Shown one piece after another: positions 1 through 5,352 of a stretch of 5,352 bases of DNA. Made by a program: the position numbers and the translations under genes. Origin of the DNA: a virus (taxonomy: Duplodnaviria > Heunggongvirae > Uroviricota > Caudoviricetes); the IMG/VR virus record IMGVR_UViG_3300013942_000028, positions 1 to 5,352 of that record; one strand, written 5' to 3'. The notes under the pieces are model-generated. The model was not told the DNA's origin. It saw nothing but the letters and a program-made list of their open reading frames with translations, and searched no databases. Positions within the stretch are counted from its first letter, which is position 1. The number at the start of each line of letters is the position of its first letter.

Positions 1-1
1 A

Positions 2-103
2 ACTGTTTCATTAGCCGAATGGAAAAAATACCGGGTGCTGCTGATGCGAGTTGATACAGCAGACCCGGACTGGCCTACTCCTCCGGCGACTCAGGCCAGT
101 TGA
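2..103 (+). CDS. Tail fiber assembly protein, C-terminal fragment (5' end lies left of the window); presumed active-orientation partner of the convergent tfa at 75..506
   Basis: Frame 2 is open from the window edge to TGA at 101..103 and reads [33 protein letters not shown]. This matches the lambda Tfa-family C-terminus as I recall it ([15 protein letters not shown]...APDIEWP). Not in the ORF track because no start codon falls inside the window. Confidence 0.6.
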
Positions 104-506
104 TATCTGGTGCGCTGGATATGTCCACAGATTCCAGCGCATCGAGATAATCCAGCCACTCGTTATACTGGGCCTTCTCGTCGTCTGTAAGTCGCCCCAG
201 CGCAGCTTTACCCGGCCACTGCTTGCTGTTTATATACTCATTAGCCTGATCGATACGATACTGTTTTTCAGCTTCAGCTGCTGCGATTTCCTCCTCATGG
301 CTTAAAGGTGGAATGTCTACCCATGCCGGCATTCCATCCTCAGTAGCTCCACGAGTTTTACCCTCTGGTGGCATCCCCGAATATTCAGTGAATGTCTCAT
401 CTGAGACGGCTATGAGATCGTCAGGCCAGTTTCTACTCGCTTCATAAACATCTCTGAGCTCATCAGGGTAGAAAGCGTTATTTAATGCTGAATAAAAATA
501 AGCCAT
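75..506 (-). CDS. tfa: Tail fiber assembly protein (Tfa/gpG/U-like chaperone), alternative copy inside the invertible segment
   Basis: 143-aa ORF ending ...[33 protein letters not shown], the Tfa-family C-terminal motif (W..Y/L....VD.S.APDI.WP). It starts 3 nt downstream of the stop of the tail-fiber cassette on the same strand (translational coupling) and converges on, and overlaps by 29 bp, the other tfa 3' end. Confidence 0.8.
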
Positions 507-509
507 TTA

Positions 510-917
510 TTAATACCCCACAGCAAAATAGTTAAACCCGCCAGCGCCGATGGATGATTCAGCGTTGGTTCCTGTCTGATAAGCGCGTAGCTGGAAATTA
601 GTTCTCGTAAAATCCTGGGCGGTTAACGCAAAACCTTGACCTGTACCCCCAACACTCTGGTCTGTTGCAACAACACATAGCGCCCTGGTTGGAAACGCAA
701 TCGGGAATGATACTGTTTCTGGGGATGTTTTCGTTTTGGCTATTGCCCATTGAAGAATTAACCCGCCTGGCAGGTATTGATACCCCGAATCGGCTCGCTG
801 ATTACCAAATGAAGACATGTCCGGAATCTGTCCGGAACCAGTGCCAACATTTTTTTTTGCCGCATCTCCTAAACCAACGTTTAAGAAAATGCAGAGGTAA
901 CAGCTAACTGGCATCAT
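510..917 (-). CDS. Tail fiber protein C-terminal variable (receptor-binding) cassette, currently in the silent orientation. The ATG at 917 is probably not a real start; the cassette is expected to be expressed only after inversion fuses it to a constant N-terminal tail-fiber segment outside the window
   Basis: Translation contains the side-tail-fiber C-terminal signature ...YLPGGLILQWAIAKT...VSFPIAFPTRALCVVATD..., resembling the Mu S/S', P1 and e14/rac Stf variable domains. The hix-like crossover site lies inside codons ~10-18. An in-frame stop sits just upstream (927..929) and no RBS is evident. Confidence 0.7.
   Translation of the reverse strand: MMPVSCYLCIFLNVGLGDAAKKNVGTGSGQIPDMSSFGNQRADSGYQYLPGGLILQWAIAKTKTSPETVSFPIAFPTRALCVVATDQSVGGTGQGFALTAQDFTRTNFQLRAYQTGTNAESSIGAGGFNYFAVGY
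864..889. other. 26-bp invertase crossover site (hix/gix/cix/pix-like), right-hand copy
   Basis: ATCTCCTAAACC-AA-CGTTTAAGAAAA: two imperfect 12-bp inverted half-sites around a central AA. By my recollection of hixL (TTCTTGAAAACCAAGGTTTTTGATAA) 19 of 26 positions match, including the AAACC-AA-(G/C)GTTT core. Confidence 0.6.
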
Positions 918-944
918 CTCCGGTTTTTATTCAGGGGGATGATC

Positions 945-1520
945 ATGCTTATTGGCTATGTACGCGTGTCAACAAATGACCAGAACACCGATTTGCAACG
1001 TAATGCACTGAACTGCGCGGGATGTGAGCGGATTTTTGAGGACAAAATCAGTGGCACTAAGTCCGACAGACCGGGGCTGAAAAAACTACTCAGGACACTA
1101 TCGGCAGGTGACACGCTGGTTGTCTGGAAGCTGGACAGGTTGGGACGCAGTATGCGGCATCTTGTTACGCTGATAGAAGAGTTGCGCCAGCGTGGCGTGA
1201 ATTTCCGAAGCCTGACTGACAGTATTGATACCAGTACCCCAATGGGCCGTTTCTTTTTTCATGTCATGGGTGCCCCGGCTGAAATGGAACGCGAACTGAT
1301 AGTTGAACGTACCAGGGCGGGGATTGCTGCAGCTCGCGACAAAGGCAGAGTAGGTGGACGCCGTCCTAAGTTGACCACCGAACAGTGGGCACAGATTGGA
1401 CGTTTACTAGAGGCCGGAGAATCAAGACAGCGTATTGCACTGATTTTTGATGTGGGCATTTCTACCATTTATAGAAAATTTCCGGCAAATAAGAGCAGTG
1501 AATCCCCTGAATCAGCATAA
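945..1520 (+). CDS. Site-specific serine DNA invertase (Hin/Gin/Pin/Cin family resolvase-invertase)
   Basis: N-terminus MLIGYVRVSTNDQNTDLQRNA with the catalytic Ser in VRVSTNDQ, the GDTLVVWKLDRLGRS and MGRFFFHVMGA...AEMERELIVERT blocks, and a C-terminal HTH (GESRQRIALIFDVGISTIYRKF). Near-identical in motif order to Gin/Pin/Hin as I recall them. GGGGG at 934..938 is a Shine-Dalgarno 6 nt before the ATG at 945. The track's ATG at 939 is in frame and adds two residues; 945 gives the canonical MLIGYV start. Confidence 0.93.
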   Translation: MLIGYVRVSTNDQNTDLQRNALNCAGCERIFEDKISGTKSDRPGLKKLLRTLSAGDTLVVWKLDRLGRSMRHLVTLIEELRQRGVNFRSLTDSIDTSTPMGRFFFHVMGAPAEMERELIVERTRAGIAAARDKGRVGGRRPKLTTEQWAQIGRLLEAGESRQRIALIFDVGISTIYRKFPANKSSESPESA

Positions 1521-1652: not shown

Positions 1653-2825
1653 ATGGCTCAGGATTACCACCACGGGGTGCGCGTTGTTGAAATCAACGAA
1701 GGCACCCGATCCATTACCACGGTGAGCACCGCCATCGTGGGTATGGTCTGCACGGGCGATGATGCCGATGCAAAAATGTTTCCTCTTAATAAACCCGTGC
1801 TGATCACTGATGTGCTGACTGCCAGCGGTAAAGCGGGTGAGTCCGGCACGCTGGCCCGTTCGCTGGATGCCATCGCTGACCAGGCAAAACCCGTGACCGT
1901 TGTTGTGCGTGTGCCGCAGGGTGAAACGGAAGAAGAAACCACGACCAATATCATCGGCGCAGTGACTGCTGAAGGTAAAAAAACAGGCATGAAAGCCCTG
2001 TTATCTGCCCAGACACAGCTCGGCGTTAAACCGCGCATTCTCGGCGTGCCAGGTCACGATAACAAAGCCGTTGCTACTGAGTTGCTGAGTGTGGCGCAAA
2101 GCCTGCGTGGGTTTGCTTACCTGTCAGCGTATGGCTGCAAGACGGTGCAGGAGGCGATCACTTACCGTGAAAACTTCAGCCAGCGCGAAGGAATGCTGAT
2201 CTGGCCCGACTTTACTGGCTGGGACACGGTGCTGAATGCCGAAGCAACGGCATATGCCACCGCCCGTGCGCTTGGTCTGCGTGCCAAAATTGATGAGCAG
2301 ACTGGATGGCACAAAAGCCTGTCCAACGTGGGCGTGAACGGTGTCACCGGAATTTCTGCAGATGTGTTCTGGGATCTGCAGGACCCGGCAACCGATGCAG
2401 GTCTGCTGAACCAGAACGACGTCACCACGCTTGTGCGTAAAGACGGTTTCCGCTTCTGGGGTTCCCGCTGCCTGAGTGATGACCCGCTCTTTGCCTTCGA
2501 AAACTACACCCGCACGGCGCAGGTGCTGACGGACACAATGGCAGAAGCGCACATGTGGGCAGTGGACAAACCGCTGAACCCGTCGCTGGCGCGCGACATT
2601 ATCGAGGGCATCCGCGCCAAAATGCGCAGCCTGGTCAGTCAGGGGTATCTCATTGGTGGTGATTGCTGGCTGGACGAGTCGGTGAACGACAAAGACACTC
2701 TGAAAGCCGGAAAACTCACCATCGACTATGACTACACGCCAGTGCCGCCACTTGAAAATCTGATGCTGCGCCAGCGCATCACCGATCAGTACCTGGTGAA
2801 TTTCGCCAGCCAGGTCAGCGCGTAA
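1653..2825 (+). CDS. FI: Contractile tail sheath protein (P2 gpFI homologue)
   Basis: 390 aa, close to the P2 FI length. N-terminus [52 protein letters not shown] and internal blocks ([61 protein letters not shown]) match P2 FI from memory. Strong RBS. Confidence 0.95.
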
Positions 2826-2834
2826 GGGGACAAC

Positions 2835-3350
2835 ATGGCTTTACCACGCAAATTAAAACATCTGAACTTGTTTAACGACGGGAACAACTGGCAGGGGATC
2901 GTTGAGTCGCTGACGCTGCCGAAATTCACCCGCAAATATGAGAAGTATCGCGGCGGCGGTATGCCGGGGGCGGTGGATGTGGATCTGGGACTGGATGACA
3001 GTGCACTGGATACAGAATTTTCCATTGGTGGTACTGAACTGCTGCTGTTTAAGCAGATGGGCATATCCACGGTGGATGGCATCCAGCTGCGCTTTACCGG
3101 CTCTATCCAGCGTGACGATACCGGGGAAGTGCAGGCCGTGGAGCTTGTCGTGCGTGGACGTCACAAAGAAGTGGATTCCGGCGAGTGGAAGACGGGCGAA
3201 AGCAACACCACCAAAGTGACCAGTACCAACAGCTACGCGAAGCTGACCATCAATGGTGAGGTGCTCTATGAAGTGGACCTTATCAACATGGTGGAAATTG
3301 TGGACGGTGTTGACCTGATGGAAGCGCACCGCAACGCCCTCGGCCTCTGA
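2835..3350 (+). CDS. FII: Tail tube protein (P2 gpFII homologue)
   Basis: 171 aa starting MALPRKLKHLNLFNDGNNWQG..., the characteristic P2 FII-type N-terminus. It sits immediately downstream of the sheath gene as in P2, with GGGGA 5 nt before the ATG. Confidence 0.93.
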   Translation: MALPRKLKHLNLFNDGNNWQGIVESLTLPKFTRKYEKYRGGGMPGAVDVDLGLDDSALDTEFSIGGTELLLFKQMGISTVDGIQLRFTGSIQRDDTGEVQAVELVVRGRHKEVDSGEWKTGESNTTKVTSTNSYAKLTINGEVLYEVDLINMVEIVDGVDLMEAHRNALGL

Positions 3351-3404
3351 TGTATCTGAACGGCGCGGAATGCCGCGCCAGAACCTAATTTACAGGACAA
3401 CAAA

Positions 3405-3707
3405 ATGAGCGATAAACAGACTGAAAAGACCATTCAACTGGATACCCCCATCATGCGCGGTAAAACAGAAATTACCGAAATTGTGTTGCGTAAACCGCAG
3501 TCTGGTGCGCTGCGCGGCACACGCCTGCAGGCCATTATGGATATGGATGTGAACGCGATGATGACCGTGATCCCCCGCATCTCCAGTCCGGCAGTGACTG
3601 CACAGGAAATCGCAGAGATGGACCCGGCAGATCTCACAGCCATGTCGGTTGAGGTTGTCACTTTTTTGTTGAAGAAGTCGGTGCTTGCCGGTTTACCGAC
3701 AGCCTGA
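3405..3707 (+). CDS. E: Tail assembly chaperone (P2 gpE homologue; lambda gpG analogue)
   Basis: 100-aa ORF between the tube and tape measure genes, the conserved position of E. It contains an in-frame slippery heptamer near its 3' end. Confidence 0.85.
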   Translation: MSDKQTEKTIQLDTPIMRGKTEITEIVLRKPQSGALRGTRLQAIMDMDVNAMMTVIPRISSPAVTAQEIAEMDPADLTAMSVEVVTFLLKKSVLAGLPTA

Positions 3708-3841
3708 CGGTTGACGATCTGGTGGCAGATATCGCCACCATTTTTCACTGGCCGCCATCCGTTACTGACGTTATGCCGCTGACCGAAGTGCTGGAATGGC
3801 GGTATAAAGCGATTCAGAGAAGCGGGGCCAACGATGAGTGA
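3405..3841 (+). CDS. Tail assembly chaperone frameshift product E+E' (frame 0 through 3668, then -1 frame to the TGA at 3839..3841), about 145 aa
   Basis: T TTT TTG at 3662..3668 is in the correct zero-frame register (act-ttt-ttg). The -1 frame from 3668 stays open for 57 codons (VEEVGACRFTDSLTVDDLVADIATIFHWPPSVTDVMPLTEVLEWRYKAIQRSGAND) and terminates 8 nt into the tape measure gene, as described for P2 E/E' and lambda G/GT. Confidence 0.7.
3662..3668 (+). other. Programmed -1 ribosomal frameshift slippery heptanucleotide (X XXY YYZ = T TTT TTG)
   Basis: Seen directly in the sequence, in the required register relative to the E reading frame. Confidence 0.7.
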
Positions 3842-5352
3842 TAACAACCTGCGCCTGCAGGTCATTCTTAATGCGGTTGACAAACTCACCCGCCCATTCC
3901 GTACTGCACAGGCCAGTTCGAAAGAGCTGGCTGGTGCAATCAGAAACTCCCGTGACGCATTAAAGCAACTCAATCAGGCGGGTAACAGCCTGGAAAAATT
4001 TCGCAAGCTGCAGGCCGATAACAAGAAGTTAGGCGACAGGCTGAACTATGCCAGACAGAAGGCTAATTTGCTTAGCTCTGAGCTGGAGGCGATGGAACAA
4101 CCATCACAACGGCACCTTGTGGCTTTAGGTCGGCAAACGCTGGCAGTCCAACGCCTGGAAGAACAACAAAAATATTTGCAGAAGCAAACGGCGCTTGTGC
4201 GTGCAGAACTGTACCGGGCGGGAATTTCTGCGAAAGATGATGCGGGAGCAACTGCCCGTTTAGCCCGTGAAACATCACGTTATAACCAGGAATTGTCGAA
4301 ACAGGAGGCGCGGCTGAAGCGACTGGGTGAAGCTCAGCGCAGGATGAATGCGGCGCGTGCCAGTTATGCCCGTTCGCTGGAGGTGCGCGATCGTATTGCA
4401 GGAGCCGGAGCCACTACCACGGCTGCAGGGCTGGCAATGGGGACGCCAGTGATGGCGGCAGTAAAAAGCTATACCAGCATGGAAGATGCCATGAAAGGTG
4501 TGGCAAAGCAGGTCAATGGTCTGCGTGACGATAATGGAAACCGTACTGCACGTTTTTATGAAATGCAGGATGCCATCAAGGCTGCCAGCGAACAGTTGCC
4601 GATGGAAAACGGTGCGGTGGACTTCGCTGCACTGGTTGAAGGTGGTGCGCGCATGAACGTCGCAAACCCTGACGACAGCTGGGAAGACCAGAAACGTGAC
4701 CTGCTGGCCTTCGCCAGTACGGCAGCAAAGGCGGCAACAGCCTTTGAGCTGCCAGCGGATGAACTGTCAGAAAGTCTGGGGAAAATCGCCCAGCTCTACA
4801 AAATACCTACCCGCAATATTGAACAGCTCGGCGATGCGCTGAACTATCTGGATGATAACGCCATGTCGAAAGGGGCGGACATCATTGATGTCATGCAACG
4901 TCTGGGCGGTGTGGCTGACCGTCTGGATTATCGTAAAGCGGCGGCACTGGGTTCCACCTTTCTGACACTGGGCGCTGCGCCGGAGGTTGCAGCCAGTGCA
5001 GCAAACGCGATGGTGCGTGAATTGTCCATTGCCACCATGCAAAGCAAGAGTTTCTTTGAAGGGATGAATCTGCTGAAACTCAATCCTGAAGTGATTGAAA
5101 AGCAGATGACGAAGGATGCGATGGGAACTATCCAGCGTGTGCTGGAGAAGGTGAACGCACTGCCGCAGGACAAGCGTCTGTCTGCCATGACCATGTTGTT
5201 TGGTAAAGAGTTTGGTGATGACGCGGCGAAACTGGCAAACAACCTTCCGGAACTGCAGCGCCAGCTAAAACTGACAGCGGGCAATGATGCGCTCGGTTCC
5301 ATGCAGAAAGAATCCGACATCAACAAAGACTCACTTTCTGCTCAGTGGTTGC
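3834..5352 (+). CDS. T: Tail tape measure protein (P2 gpT homologue), N-terminal ~506 codons; continues past the window end
   Basis: ATG at 3834 preceded by GGGG 8 nt upstream. I translated the frame by hand and it stays open to the window end with no stop. N-terminus MSDNNLRLQVILNAVDKLTRPFRTAQASSKELAG... followed by Q/L/E/R/A-rich heptad-like stretches typical of tape measure proteins. Position immediately after E/E' is conserved. Confidence 0.9.
   Translation, partial: MSDNNLRLQVILNAVDKLTRPFRTAQASSKELAGAIRNSRDALKQLNQAGNSLEKFRKLQADNKKLGDRLNYARQKANLLSSELEAMEQPSQRHLVALGRQTLAVQRLEEQQKYLQKQTALVRAELYRAGISAKDDAGATARLARETSRYNQELSKQEARLKRLGEAQRRMNAARASYARSLEVRDRIAGAGATTTAAGLAMGTPVMAAVKSYTSMEDAMKGVAKQVNGLRDDNGNRTARFYEMQDAIKAASEQLPMENGAVDFAALVEGGARMNVANPDDSWEDQKRDLLAFASTAAKAATAFELPADELSESLGKIAQLYKIPTRNIEQLGDALNYLDDNAMSKGADIIDVMQRLGGVADRLDYRKAAALGSTFLTLGAAPEVAASAANAMVRELSIATMQSKSFFEGMNLLKLNPEVIEKQMTKDAMGTIQRVLEKVNALPQDKRLSAMTMLFGKEFGDDAAKLANNLPELQRQLKLTAGNDALGSMQKESDINKDSLSAQWL

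What the first reader, a model, noticed from the sequence alone, without database searches (positions are those of the whole stretch)
3662..3841. Conserved E/E' programmed -1 frameshift; E' terminates inside the tape measure start
The slippery heptamer T TTT TTG is in register near the end of E, and the -1 frame is open for 57 codons, ending at a TGA (3839..3841) that overlaps the T start codon region (ATG 3834). This reproduces the lambda G/GT and P2 E/E' arrangement and supports the gene calls. The ORF track shows only the 100-aa E product, so the fusion would be missed by simple ORF calling.
Basis: partly seen in the sequence, partly recalled or inferred. Interest (0 to 1): 0.45.

Follow-up and report, generated by a model that had tools for sequence, protein, structure and literature searches.

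The report
P2-type E/E' tail chaperone frameshift
This is the well-known programmed -1 ribosomal frameshift that lets P2-like phages make two tail-assembly chaperones (E and the longer E+E') from one gene start; it is real here, strongly conserved, and ordinary.

Summary
Gene E (3405..3707, 100 aa) carries T_TTT_TTG at 3662..3668 in the X_XXY_YYZ register. The -1 frame is open for 57 codons after it and stops at TGA 3839..3841, 8 nt into the tape-measure gene T (ATG 3834).

The interpretation also holds:
- The -1 extension matches Pfam Phage_P2_GpE over the whole model (E = 2.9e-18).
- It is 56% identical to P2 E'. The reconstructed 145-aa fusion aligns without gaps, through the junction, to P2 E+E' (142 aa, 47% identity).
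- All 126 distinct related loci examined carry an in-register slippery heptamer (110 TTTTTTG, 13 TTTTTTA, three other canonical heptamers).
- Across 40 relatives the fastest-varying codon position moves into the -1 frame exactly over 3708..3838 and returns to the 0 frame in T.
- The two synonymous positions inside the heptamer never vary.

No conserved downstream RNA structure was found, in line with what is reported for P2. An upstream Shine-Dalgarno-like GAGG is not supported beyond what the amino-acid sequence explains.

The window is an Elveevirus-like (Peduoviridae) prophage common in E. coli. Public annotation usually splits E' off as a separate 39-aa "GpE family" gene, which is an annotation artefact rather than new biology. 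Already known; low interest.

The parts
2835..3350 (+). Tail tube gene FII, the upstream neighbour that fixes the canonical position of the chaperone gene
   Evidence: Pfam PF04985 Phage_tube, E = 8.7e-60.
3405..3707 (+). Gene E: the 0-frame tail assembly chaperone, 100 aa
   Evidence: ORF. Pfam PF10109 Phage_TAC_7, E = 3e-18. PHROG 103 'tail protein', E = 3.7e-41.
3662..3668 (+). Slippery heptamer T_TTT_TTG in X_XXY_YYZ register
   Evidence: Register confirmed. An in-register slippery heptamer occurs in all 126 distinct related loci. Wobble positions 3662 and 3665 are invariant in 40 distinct relatives, while neighbouring wobble sites vary.
3668..3841 (+). E' : the -1 frame extension, 57 codons plus TGA, translated only as the tail of E+E'
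   Evidence: Pfam PF06528 Phage_P2_GpE, positions 1-37 of 37, E = 2.9e-18. 56% identity to P2 E'. The wobble-variation phase lies in the -1 frame over 3708..3838.
3405..3841 (+). Composite E+E' coding region (3405..3668 joined to 3668..3841, with base 3668 read twice), 145 aa
   Evidence: The reconstructed fusion aligns without gaps to P2 E+E' (142 aa), 47% identity over 141 aa, E = 1e-49.
3834..5352 (+). Tape measure gene T (runs off the window end); its first 8 nt overlap the end of E'
   Evidence: Pfam PF10145 PhageMin_Tail, E = 5.4e-19. SD-like GCGGGG lies 7 nt upstream of the ATG, anti-SD duplex -7.0 kcal/mol. The T start lies 5 nt before the E' stop in most relatives.
3651..3654 (+). GAGG, a Shine-Dalgarno-like tetramer 7 nt upstream of the heptamer: a candidate stimulator, not established
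   Evidence: It is the strongest anti-SD site inside E, -6.3 kcal/mol. The codon is GAG in 38 of 39 relatives, against 20% GAG for Glu codons elsewhere in E. A synonymous-recoding control across 13 diverse lineages is not significant, combined p = 0.097.

Best explanation
Gene E and its overlapping -1 frame E' form the P2-type tail assembly chaperone pair, expressed by programmed -1 ribosomal frameshifting.

Most ribosomes translate E (100 aa) to its stop at 3705..3707. A minority behave differently. With tRNA-Phe on UUU (3663..3665) in the P site and tRNA-Leu on UUG (3666..3668) in the A site, they slip back one base onto UUU UUU. They then continue in the -1 frame for 57 more codons and produce the 145-aa fusion E+E', which ends 8 nt inside the tape-measure gene T.

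By analogy with lambda gpG/gpGT and the P2 genetics:
- The shared E part coats the tape measure protein.
- The rarer E' tail recruits the tail tube protein so that the tube polymerises around the tape measure.
- Neither protein remains in the virion.
- The fixed slip frequency sets the E : E+E' ratio.

Shown here: the signal, its register, homology of both parts to the P2 proteins, purifying selection on the -1 frame, and nucleotide-level conservation of the heptamer.

Inferred: that slippage really happens in this element, its frequency, and the protein-protein contacts.
For: - Anatomy: the in-register heptamer and the 57-codon -1 ORF.
- Homology: PF10109 on E and full-length PF06528 on the -1 extension. 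47% gapless identity to P2 E+E' across the junction, and 56% for E' alone. tblastn finds the fusion in two pieces (two frames) in 371 phage records at 80% coverage or more.
- Conservation of the signal: TTTTTTG in 11 of 14 diverse Peduoviridae-type phages, with canonical alternatives TTTTTTC, GGGAAAG and AAATTTT in the other three. TTTTTT[GA] in 37 of 37 Enterobacterales prophage loci. All 126 distinct loci have an in-register heptamer (the single 'none', RSA1, is a script artefact resolved).
- Selection: mean entropy by 0-frame codon position is 0.35/0.20/0.94 upstream of the slip, 0.09/0.61/0.24 in 3708..3838 (so the third position of the -1 frame varies most), and 0.30/0.14/0.90 in T. Wobble sites 3662 and 3665 are invariant.
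- No independent start signal: the GTG at 3722 has no SD, -2.5 kcal/mol against -7 to -11 for T, FII and FI.
- Literature: in P2 the -1 shift at TTTTTTG yields the 91-aa E and the 142-aa E+E' (PMC3091744, citing Christie et al. 2002 and Xu et al. 2004). The lambda G/GT mechanism is described in PMC5009743.
Against: - No expression data exist for this element; the fusion is inferred.
- No stimulatory downstream RNA structure was found: fold z = -1.8, 0 compensatory pairs, and candidate hairpins no better than shuffles. Efficiency therefore rests on the heptamer alone, as reported for P2 (PMC3091744).
- U_UUU_UUG ends in a heterogeneous ZZN codon. In E. coli reporter assays such codons are the weaker shifters (PMC4066793).
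- A potential start codon (GTG or ATG) at the position of 3722 is present in 119 of 126 loci. Some independent translation of a short E' peptide therefore cannot be excluded from sequence alone.
Confidence: 0.9

Rival explanations
1. E' is a separate small gene. A 39-aa 'GpE family' peptide would be translated from its own start at GTG 3722..3724, as RefSeq/PGAP and many phage records annotate it, with no frameshift.
For: - Annotated this way in Cartapus, RE-2010, phiCTX, SEN4 and E. coli RefSeq records.
- The codon at this position is GTG or ATG in 119 of 126 distinct loci, and the wobble G of the GTG is invariant in 37 close relatives.
Against: - There is no SD before 3722: -2.5 kcal/mol, against -7 to -11 for T, FII and FI.
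- The codon is GTA, GCC, TGG, ATT or ATC in 7 loci, whereas the heptamer is present in all.
- -1 frame protein conservation begins at the heptamer, 18 codons upstream of 3722: FFVEEVGACRFTDSLTVDDL here against FFVAELGAVTFPKNLSVDDL in P2.
- The -1 frame is open from the heptamer in every locus.
- PHROG 1756 matches fusion residues 85-145, spanning the junction.
- Published P2 work reports translation as an extension of E (cited in PMC3091744).
Confidence: 0.05
2. The frame change is made at the RNA level. RNA polymerase would slip on the T6 run and add one U to a fraction of transcripts, which are then translated normally into E+E'.
For: - The shift site is a homopolymeric run of 6 T (7 T in L015 and L016).
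- Sequence alone cannot separate the two mechanisms.
Against: - Efficient transcriptional slippage in bacteria generally needs runs of about 8-9 or more (my own knowledge; review PMC5009743).
- The run keeps the X_XXY_YYZ codon register in all loci.
- Family members with GGGAAAG (Mannheimia phage) and AAATTTT (Citrobacter phage Shae_phiSM) are canonical ribosomal heptamers with no homopolymer long enough for polymerase slippage.
Confidence: 0.04
3. The heptamer and the open -1 frame are coincidental, or reflect a recent frameshift mutation or sequencing error in a once-continuous gene.
For: The bare heptamer count is at the chance level.
Against: - The same two-frame layout occurs in all 126 distinct loci from many genera.
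- Both the E stop and the E' frame are under selection.
Confidence: 0.01

Closest known systems
Bacteriophage P2 genes E and E+E' (FETUD tail operon; Christie et al. 2002, cited in PMC3091744 and PMC5009743)
   Same: - Homologous proteins: 47% identity over 141 aa for the fusion and 56% for E'.
- Identical heptamer TTTTTTG in the same register near the end of E.
- E' is also 57 codons long.
- The E' stop lies 5 nt after the T start.
- Same gene order FI-FII-E/E'-T.
   Different: - E is 100 aa rather than 91 aa, with a longer 0-frame tail after the slip site (13 codons).
- The host element is an Elveevirus-like prophage, 96-97% identical to Escherichia phage Cartapus and Klebsiella phage 4LV2017, not Peduovirus P2.
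- An invertase and invertible tail-fibre cassette sits immediately upstream of FI.
Phage lambda gpG / gpGT tail assembly chaperones (Levin et al. 1993; Xu et al. 2004, 2013, 2014, as cited in PMC5009743)
   Same: - Same position between the major tail (tube) gene and the tape measure gene.
[quoted passage not shown]
- Lambda is the source of the functional model: the G part binds the tape measure and the T part binds the tube subunit.
   Different: - No detectable sequence relationship; only PF10109 and PF06528 were hit.
- Different heptamer (G_GGA_AAG, from my own knowledge).
- Lambda has a non-contractile tail, whereas this is a contractile tail with a sheath gene.
E. coli dnaX -1 frameshift (A_AAA_AAG with an upstream SD-like stimulator and a downstream hairpin; Larsen et al. 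1994, cited in PMC3711429)
   Same: - Tandem -1 slippage on an X_XXY_YYZ heptamer in an enterobacterial host.
- An SD-like GAGG lies upstream of the heptamer here.
   Different: - No supported downstream hairpin.
- The SD-like element is not significant once amino-acid sequence is controlled, and its spacing is 7 nt rather than 10 nt.
- The frameshift product here is longer than the 0-frame product, not shorter.

Membership tests
P2-type E / E+E' tail assembly chaperone frameshift (Peduoviridae) | The chaperone gene lies between the tail tube gene (FII) and the tape measure gene (T) | tested here: met
   FII 2835..3350 (PF04985), E 3405..3707, T from 3834 (PF10145).
P2-type E / E+E' tail assembly chaperone frameshift (Peduoviridae) | The 0-frame product belongs to the gpE chaperone family | tested here: met
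   PF10109 Phage_TAC_7, E = 3e-18, 66 bits against a cut-off of 25. The fusion is 47% identical to P2 E+E', and the alignment spans the E part.
P2-type E / E+E' tail assembly chaperone frameshift (Peduoviridae) | An in-register X_XXY_YYZ slippery heptamer (T_TTT_TTG in P2) lies near the 3' end of E | tested here: met
   TTTTTTG at 3662..3668 in register. It is conserved in relatives.
P2-type E / E+E' tail assembly chaperone frameshift (Peduoviridae) | The -1 frame extension is homologous to P2 E' | tested here: met
   PF06528 Phage_P2_GpE over the full model, E = 2.9e-18. 56% identity over 57 aa, E = 8e-24.
P2-type E / E+E' tail assembly chaperone frameshift (Peduoviridae) | The -1 frame is under purifying selection, and the heptamer is constrained at the nucleotide level | tested here: met
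   The wobble-variation phase switches to the -1 frame in 3708..3838, and sites 3662 and 3665 are invariant.
P2-type E / E+E' tail assembly chaperone frameshift (Peduoviridae) | E' has no translation initiation signal of its own | tested here: met
   There is no SD before the only candidate start, GTG 3722 (-2.5 kcal/mol). That start codon is not universally conserved.
P2-type E / E+E' tail assembly chaperone frameshift (Peduoviridae) | The fusion protein is actually made at a low fixed frequency, and both products are needed for tail assembly | not testable with these tools
   This needs protein detection and genetics. It is known for P2 only from the literature (cited in PMC3091744).
Lambda gpG / gpGT family | Sequence membership in the lambda G and T protein families | tested here: not met
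   A Pfam scan of E and E+E' at E <= 0.01 returned only PF10109 and PF06528. The likeness is therefore architectural, not family membership.
Lambda gpG / gpGT family | A -1 frameshift near the end of the ORF that precedes the tape measure gene | tested here: met
dnaX-type stimulated -1 frameshift signal | A downstream stimulatory hairpin or pseudoknot 5-9 nt after the heptamer | tested here: not met
   Fold z = -1.8. RNAalifold gives -11.4 kcal/mol with 0 compensatory pairs. The candidate stem 3677..3700 is no better than shuffles. Rfam has no hit.
dnaX-type stimulated -1 frameshift signal | An upstream SD-like stimulator | tested here: inconclusive
   GAGG lies 7 nt upstream (-6.3 kcal/mol), and GAG codon choice is 38 of 39 against a 20% background. 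The synonymous-recoding test across 13 lineages gives p = 0.097.

The most novel reading that the evidence does not exclude
The P2-family E/E' frameshift may not rely on the heptamer alone. It could be tuned by an upstream Shine-Dalgarno-like element (GAGG / GGAGGTGG, 7 nt before the heptamer) that pairs with 16S rRNA and holds or pauses the ribosome on the slip site. This would be a stimulator not described for this family. The evidence is suggestive: it is the strongest anti-SD site in E, and GAG is used in 38 of 39 relatives against 20% elsewhere. It is not significant once the amino-acid sequence is controlled.
Probability: 0.12. Interest if true: 0.25.

Novelty: already known. Interest (0 to 1): 0.08.

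Why it matters
The biology is established, so the value is practical.
- It confirms the gene calls FI-FII-E/E'-T for this prophage.
- It shows that the small "GpE family phage tail protein" gene annotated in RefSeq E. coli genomes and most phage records is really the -1 frame tail of a 145-aa fusion.
- Correct joined annotation matters for proteomics searches, for engineering P2-like tails or tailocins, and for benchmarking frameshift predictors.
- The data also give a clean comparative example of a heptamer-only -1 signal conserved across many genera.

Tried and rejected
- **Downstream stimulatory RNA structure.** The single-sequence fold of 3662..3760 is only z = -1.8. RNAalifold on 37 relatives finds no compensatory pairs. 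Two hand-picked hairpins (3677..3700 and 3721..3739) show pairing and covariation no better than shuffles. Rejected as unsupported, in line with PMC3091744 for P2 and the Burkholderia phages.
- **Rfam.** A scan of the whole window at E <= 1 gave only a chance-level partial IS009 hit at 1..63.
- **Upstream SD-like stimulator.** It looked promising. However, the synonymous-recoding control in 13 diverse lineages gives a combined p of 0.097, so it is largely explained by the G/E/V-rich peptide.
- **NCBIfam.** No model matched the fusion at E <= 0.01.
- **Solved structures.** No relative was found in the PDB by profile search; the best hit has E = 0.22 and is unrelated.
- **Christie et al. 2002 (PMC135442).** The paper is not held. 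Its content is cited second-hand through PMC3091744 and PMC5009743, and from my own knowledge.
- **Structure prediction.** Not attempted. The alignment contains locus-derived sequences that the tool would refuse, and a single-sequence model would add little.
- **Sharma et al. 2014 (PMC4066793).** It gives no explicit value for U_UUU_UUG in the text searched.

Full report
**Observation**

The window carries, on the + strand, the following genes:
- a serine invertase, 939..1520;
- tail sheath FI, 1653..2825;
- tail tube FII, 2835..3350;
- a 100-aa ORF, 3405..3707;
- a long ORF from ATG 3834, which is a tape measure protein.

Direct translation gives these details:
- The 100-aa ORF reads ...GTC ACT TTT TTG TTG..., so TTTTTTG at 3662..3668 is in the X_XXY_YYZ register.
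- The -1 frame opens at 3653 and has 57 sense codons from 3668 to 3838.
- It stops at TGA 3839..3841, 8 nt into T.
- There is no ATG, GTG or TTG in the T frame between its upstream stop and 3834, so 3834 is the first possible T start. It has a moderate SD.

All coordinates in the finding are correct.

**Is it more than chance?**

The heptamer string alone is not unusual: 2 copies against 1.19 expected. Among 1,364 codons of + strand genes there are only two in-register X_XXY_YYZ heptamers, and only this one leads into an open -1 frame. The decisive evidence is comparative and is set out below.

**What it is**

- The 0-frame product matches Pfam PF10109 (Phage_TAC_7, 'tail assembly chaperone proteins E, or 41 or 14').
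- The -1 extension matches the whole of PF06528 (Phage_P2_GpE), E = 2.9e-18.
- PHROGs gives tail-protein families for both parts, including one (phrog_1756) that spans the junction.
- I reconstructed P2 E+E' from a P2 record and obtained 142 aa, the length given in the literature (PMC3091744). The window's 145-aa fusion aligns to it without gaps through the junction at 47% identity (E = 1e-49). The E' part alone is 56% identical over all 57 residues.

**Source of the window**

- The nearest phage records are Elveevirus-type Peduoviridae: Escherichia phage Cartapus, Klebsiella phage 4LV2017 and many Klebsiella prophage-derived phages, at 96-97% identity.
- Parts of the window occur in 1,594 of 5,426 complete E. 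coli genomes, with a best match of 99.8%.

**Conservation of the signal**

- In 14 diverse phage loci, 11 have TTTTTTG in register near the end of E. These include P2, phiCTX, Burkholderia FLC5, Erwinia ENT90, Shewanella M16-3, Ralstonia RSA1, Acidovorax Alfacinha1 and Salmonella SEN4.
- The other three carry different canonical heptamers: TTTTTTC in Vibrio VP58.5, GGGAAAG in a Mannheimia phage, and AAATTTT in Citrobacter Shae_phiSM.
- In 37 prophage loci from different Enterobacterales species (59-97% E identity), every one has TTTTTT[GA] in register. In each, the -1 frame is open to a stop that overlaps the T start, usually with the T start 5 nt before the E' stop.
- Pooling these with 80 viral contigs gives 126 distinct loci: 110 TTTTTTG, 13 TTTTTTA and 3 other heptamers. 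The one 'none' is RSA1, a script artefact, since its heptamer was found.

**Selection**

A 40-sequence alignment shows where variation falls, measured as mean entropy at 0-frame codon positions 1/2/3:

| Region | Pos. 1 | Pos. 2 | Pos. 3 |
|---|---|---|---|
| E upstream of the slip | 0.35 | 0.20 | 0.94 |
| 3708..3838 (E' only) | 0.09 | 0.61 | 0.24 |
| T | 0.30 | 0.14 | 0.90 |

- In 3708..3838 the 0-frame position 2, which is the -1 frame wobble, varies most.
- The two wobble positions inside the heptamer (3662 and 3665) are invariant, whereas flanking wobble sites have entropies of 0.8 to 1.8.
- This is the signature of a -1 frame that is translated, and of a heptamer constrained at the nucleotide level.

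**Stimulators**

- No downstream structure is supported, and Rfam has nothing. This agrees with Lynch et al. (PMC3091744), who found no hairpins for P2, KS5, KS14 or KL3.
- Upstream, GAGG at 3651..3654 is the best anti-SD site inside E.
- Its Glu codon is GAG in 38 of 39 close relatives, against 20% GAG elsewhere in E.
- Its 7-nt spacing falls inside the 6-17 nt range that Sharma et al. treated as stimulatory (PMC4066793).
- However, recoding the seven upstream codons synonymously in 13 diverse lineages shows that the SD-likeness is mostly a consequence of the peptide (combined p = 0.097). I leave this as inconclusive.

**Rivals**

*Independent initiation at GTG 3722.* This is how PGAP and most phage records annotate a 39-aa 'GpE family' gene. 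Several results argue against it:
- There is no SD before 3722.
- Seven loci have non-start codons at that position.
- -1 frame protein conservation starts at the heptamer, 18 codons upstream.

*Transcriptional slippage on T6.* This is unlikely for two reasons:
- The run is short.
- Family members with GGGAAAG or AAATTTT cannot use it.

*Chance or a mutational frameshift.* This is excluded by the comparative data.

**Mechanism**

- Shown: the signal, its register, homology of both parts, and selection on the -1 frame.
- Inferred from P2 genetics (Christie et al. 2002, as cited in PMC3091744 and PMC5009743) and lambda biochemistry (Xu et al., as summarised in PMC5009743):
  - A minority of ribosomes slip -1 at U_UUU_UUG and make E+E'.
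  - The E moiety binds the tape measure protein.
  - The E' moiety recruits the tube protein.
  - Both chaperones leave the finished tail.
  - The slip frequency fixes their ratio.

**Comparison and novelty**

This is a member of the P2 E/E+E' system by every sequence-testable criterion. Only expression itself could not be tested. It works like lambda G/GT but is not a sequence member of that family. The feature is already known, so interest is low. Its main use is to correct the annotation by joining the CDS.

Noticed in passing
window 3722..3841 (and L001 3873..3992, L055 4369..4488): Public records (RefSeq/PGAP E. coli genomes, phage Cartapus, RE-2010, phiCTX, SEN4 and others) annotate the E' frame as a separate 39-aa 'GpE family phage tail protein' starting at an internal GTG or ATG. 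Among the records inspected, only Burkholderia phage FLC5 had a joined E+E' CDS. This looks like a systematic mis-annotation.
   Followed up: yes
window 3651..3657: A Shine-Dalgarno-like GAGG (GGAGGTGG in many relatives) lies 7 nt upstream of the slippery heptamer. GAG codon choice there is 38 of 39 relatives, against 20% for Glu codons elsewhere in E. A synonymous-recoding control across 13 lineages is not significant (p = 0.097).
   Followed up: partly
window 3720..3745: A terminator-like hairpin lies inside E': TGGTGGC-AGATATC-GCCACCA followed by TTTTTC. It is encoded by the conserved V-A-D-I-A-T-I-F motif. Stem wobble sites are conserved and loop wobble sites vary, but there is no covariation. 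The T-run is broken (ATCTTTC) in many relatives, and P2 lacks the stem. Probably a by-product of the peptide.
   Followed up: partly
window 3362..3379: A strong all-G-C 7-bp hairpin (GGCGCGG AAUG CCGCGCC; -16.2 kcal/mol for 3351..3404, z = -3.0) lies in the FII-E intergenic spacer with no U-run after it. A rho-independent terminator is annotated at the same position in Mannheimia phage 1127AP1. It may be a partial terminator or mRNA-stability element that sets the sheath/tube to chaperone/tape-measure expression ratio.
   Followed up: partly
window 1..1520: This region looks like an invertible tail-fibre host-range switch. It holds a Gin/Cin/Hin-type serine invertase (939..1520; PF00239 plus HTH_7). 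On the opposite strand there is a silent tail-fibre C-terminal cassette (510..917, Gp53-like_C) with its tail-fibre assembly gene (75..506). A crossover-site-like sequence, TCTCCTAAACCAACGTTTAAGAAAA, lies at 865..889. In the relative Cartapus, a 75-nt inverted repeat (79% complementary) flanks the corresponding 1.4-kb segment. The partner site lies outside this window.
   Followed up: partly
window 1..111: The 3' end of a + strand tail-fibre assembly gene runs into the window. It overlaps, convergently, the end of the - strand assembly gene 75..506, as in Cartapus (CARTA_20 and CARTA_21).
   Followed up: no
L022, L030-L032, L038, L041, L042 (heptamer position): A minority of relatives use TTTTTTA instead of TTTTTTG. 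The change is synonymous in E (Leu) but turns the first E' residue from Val to Ile or Thr. It shows that the 7th base is free to be a purine, and it is a natural variant for testing A-site codon effects on slip efficiency.
   Followed up: no
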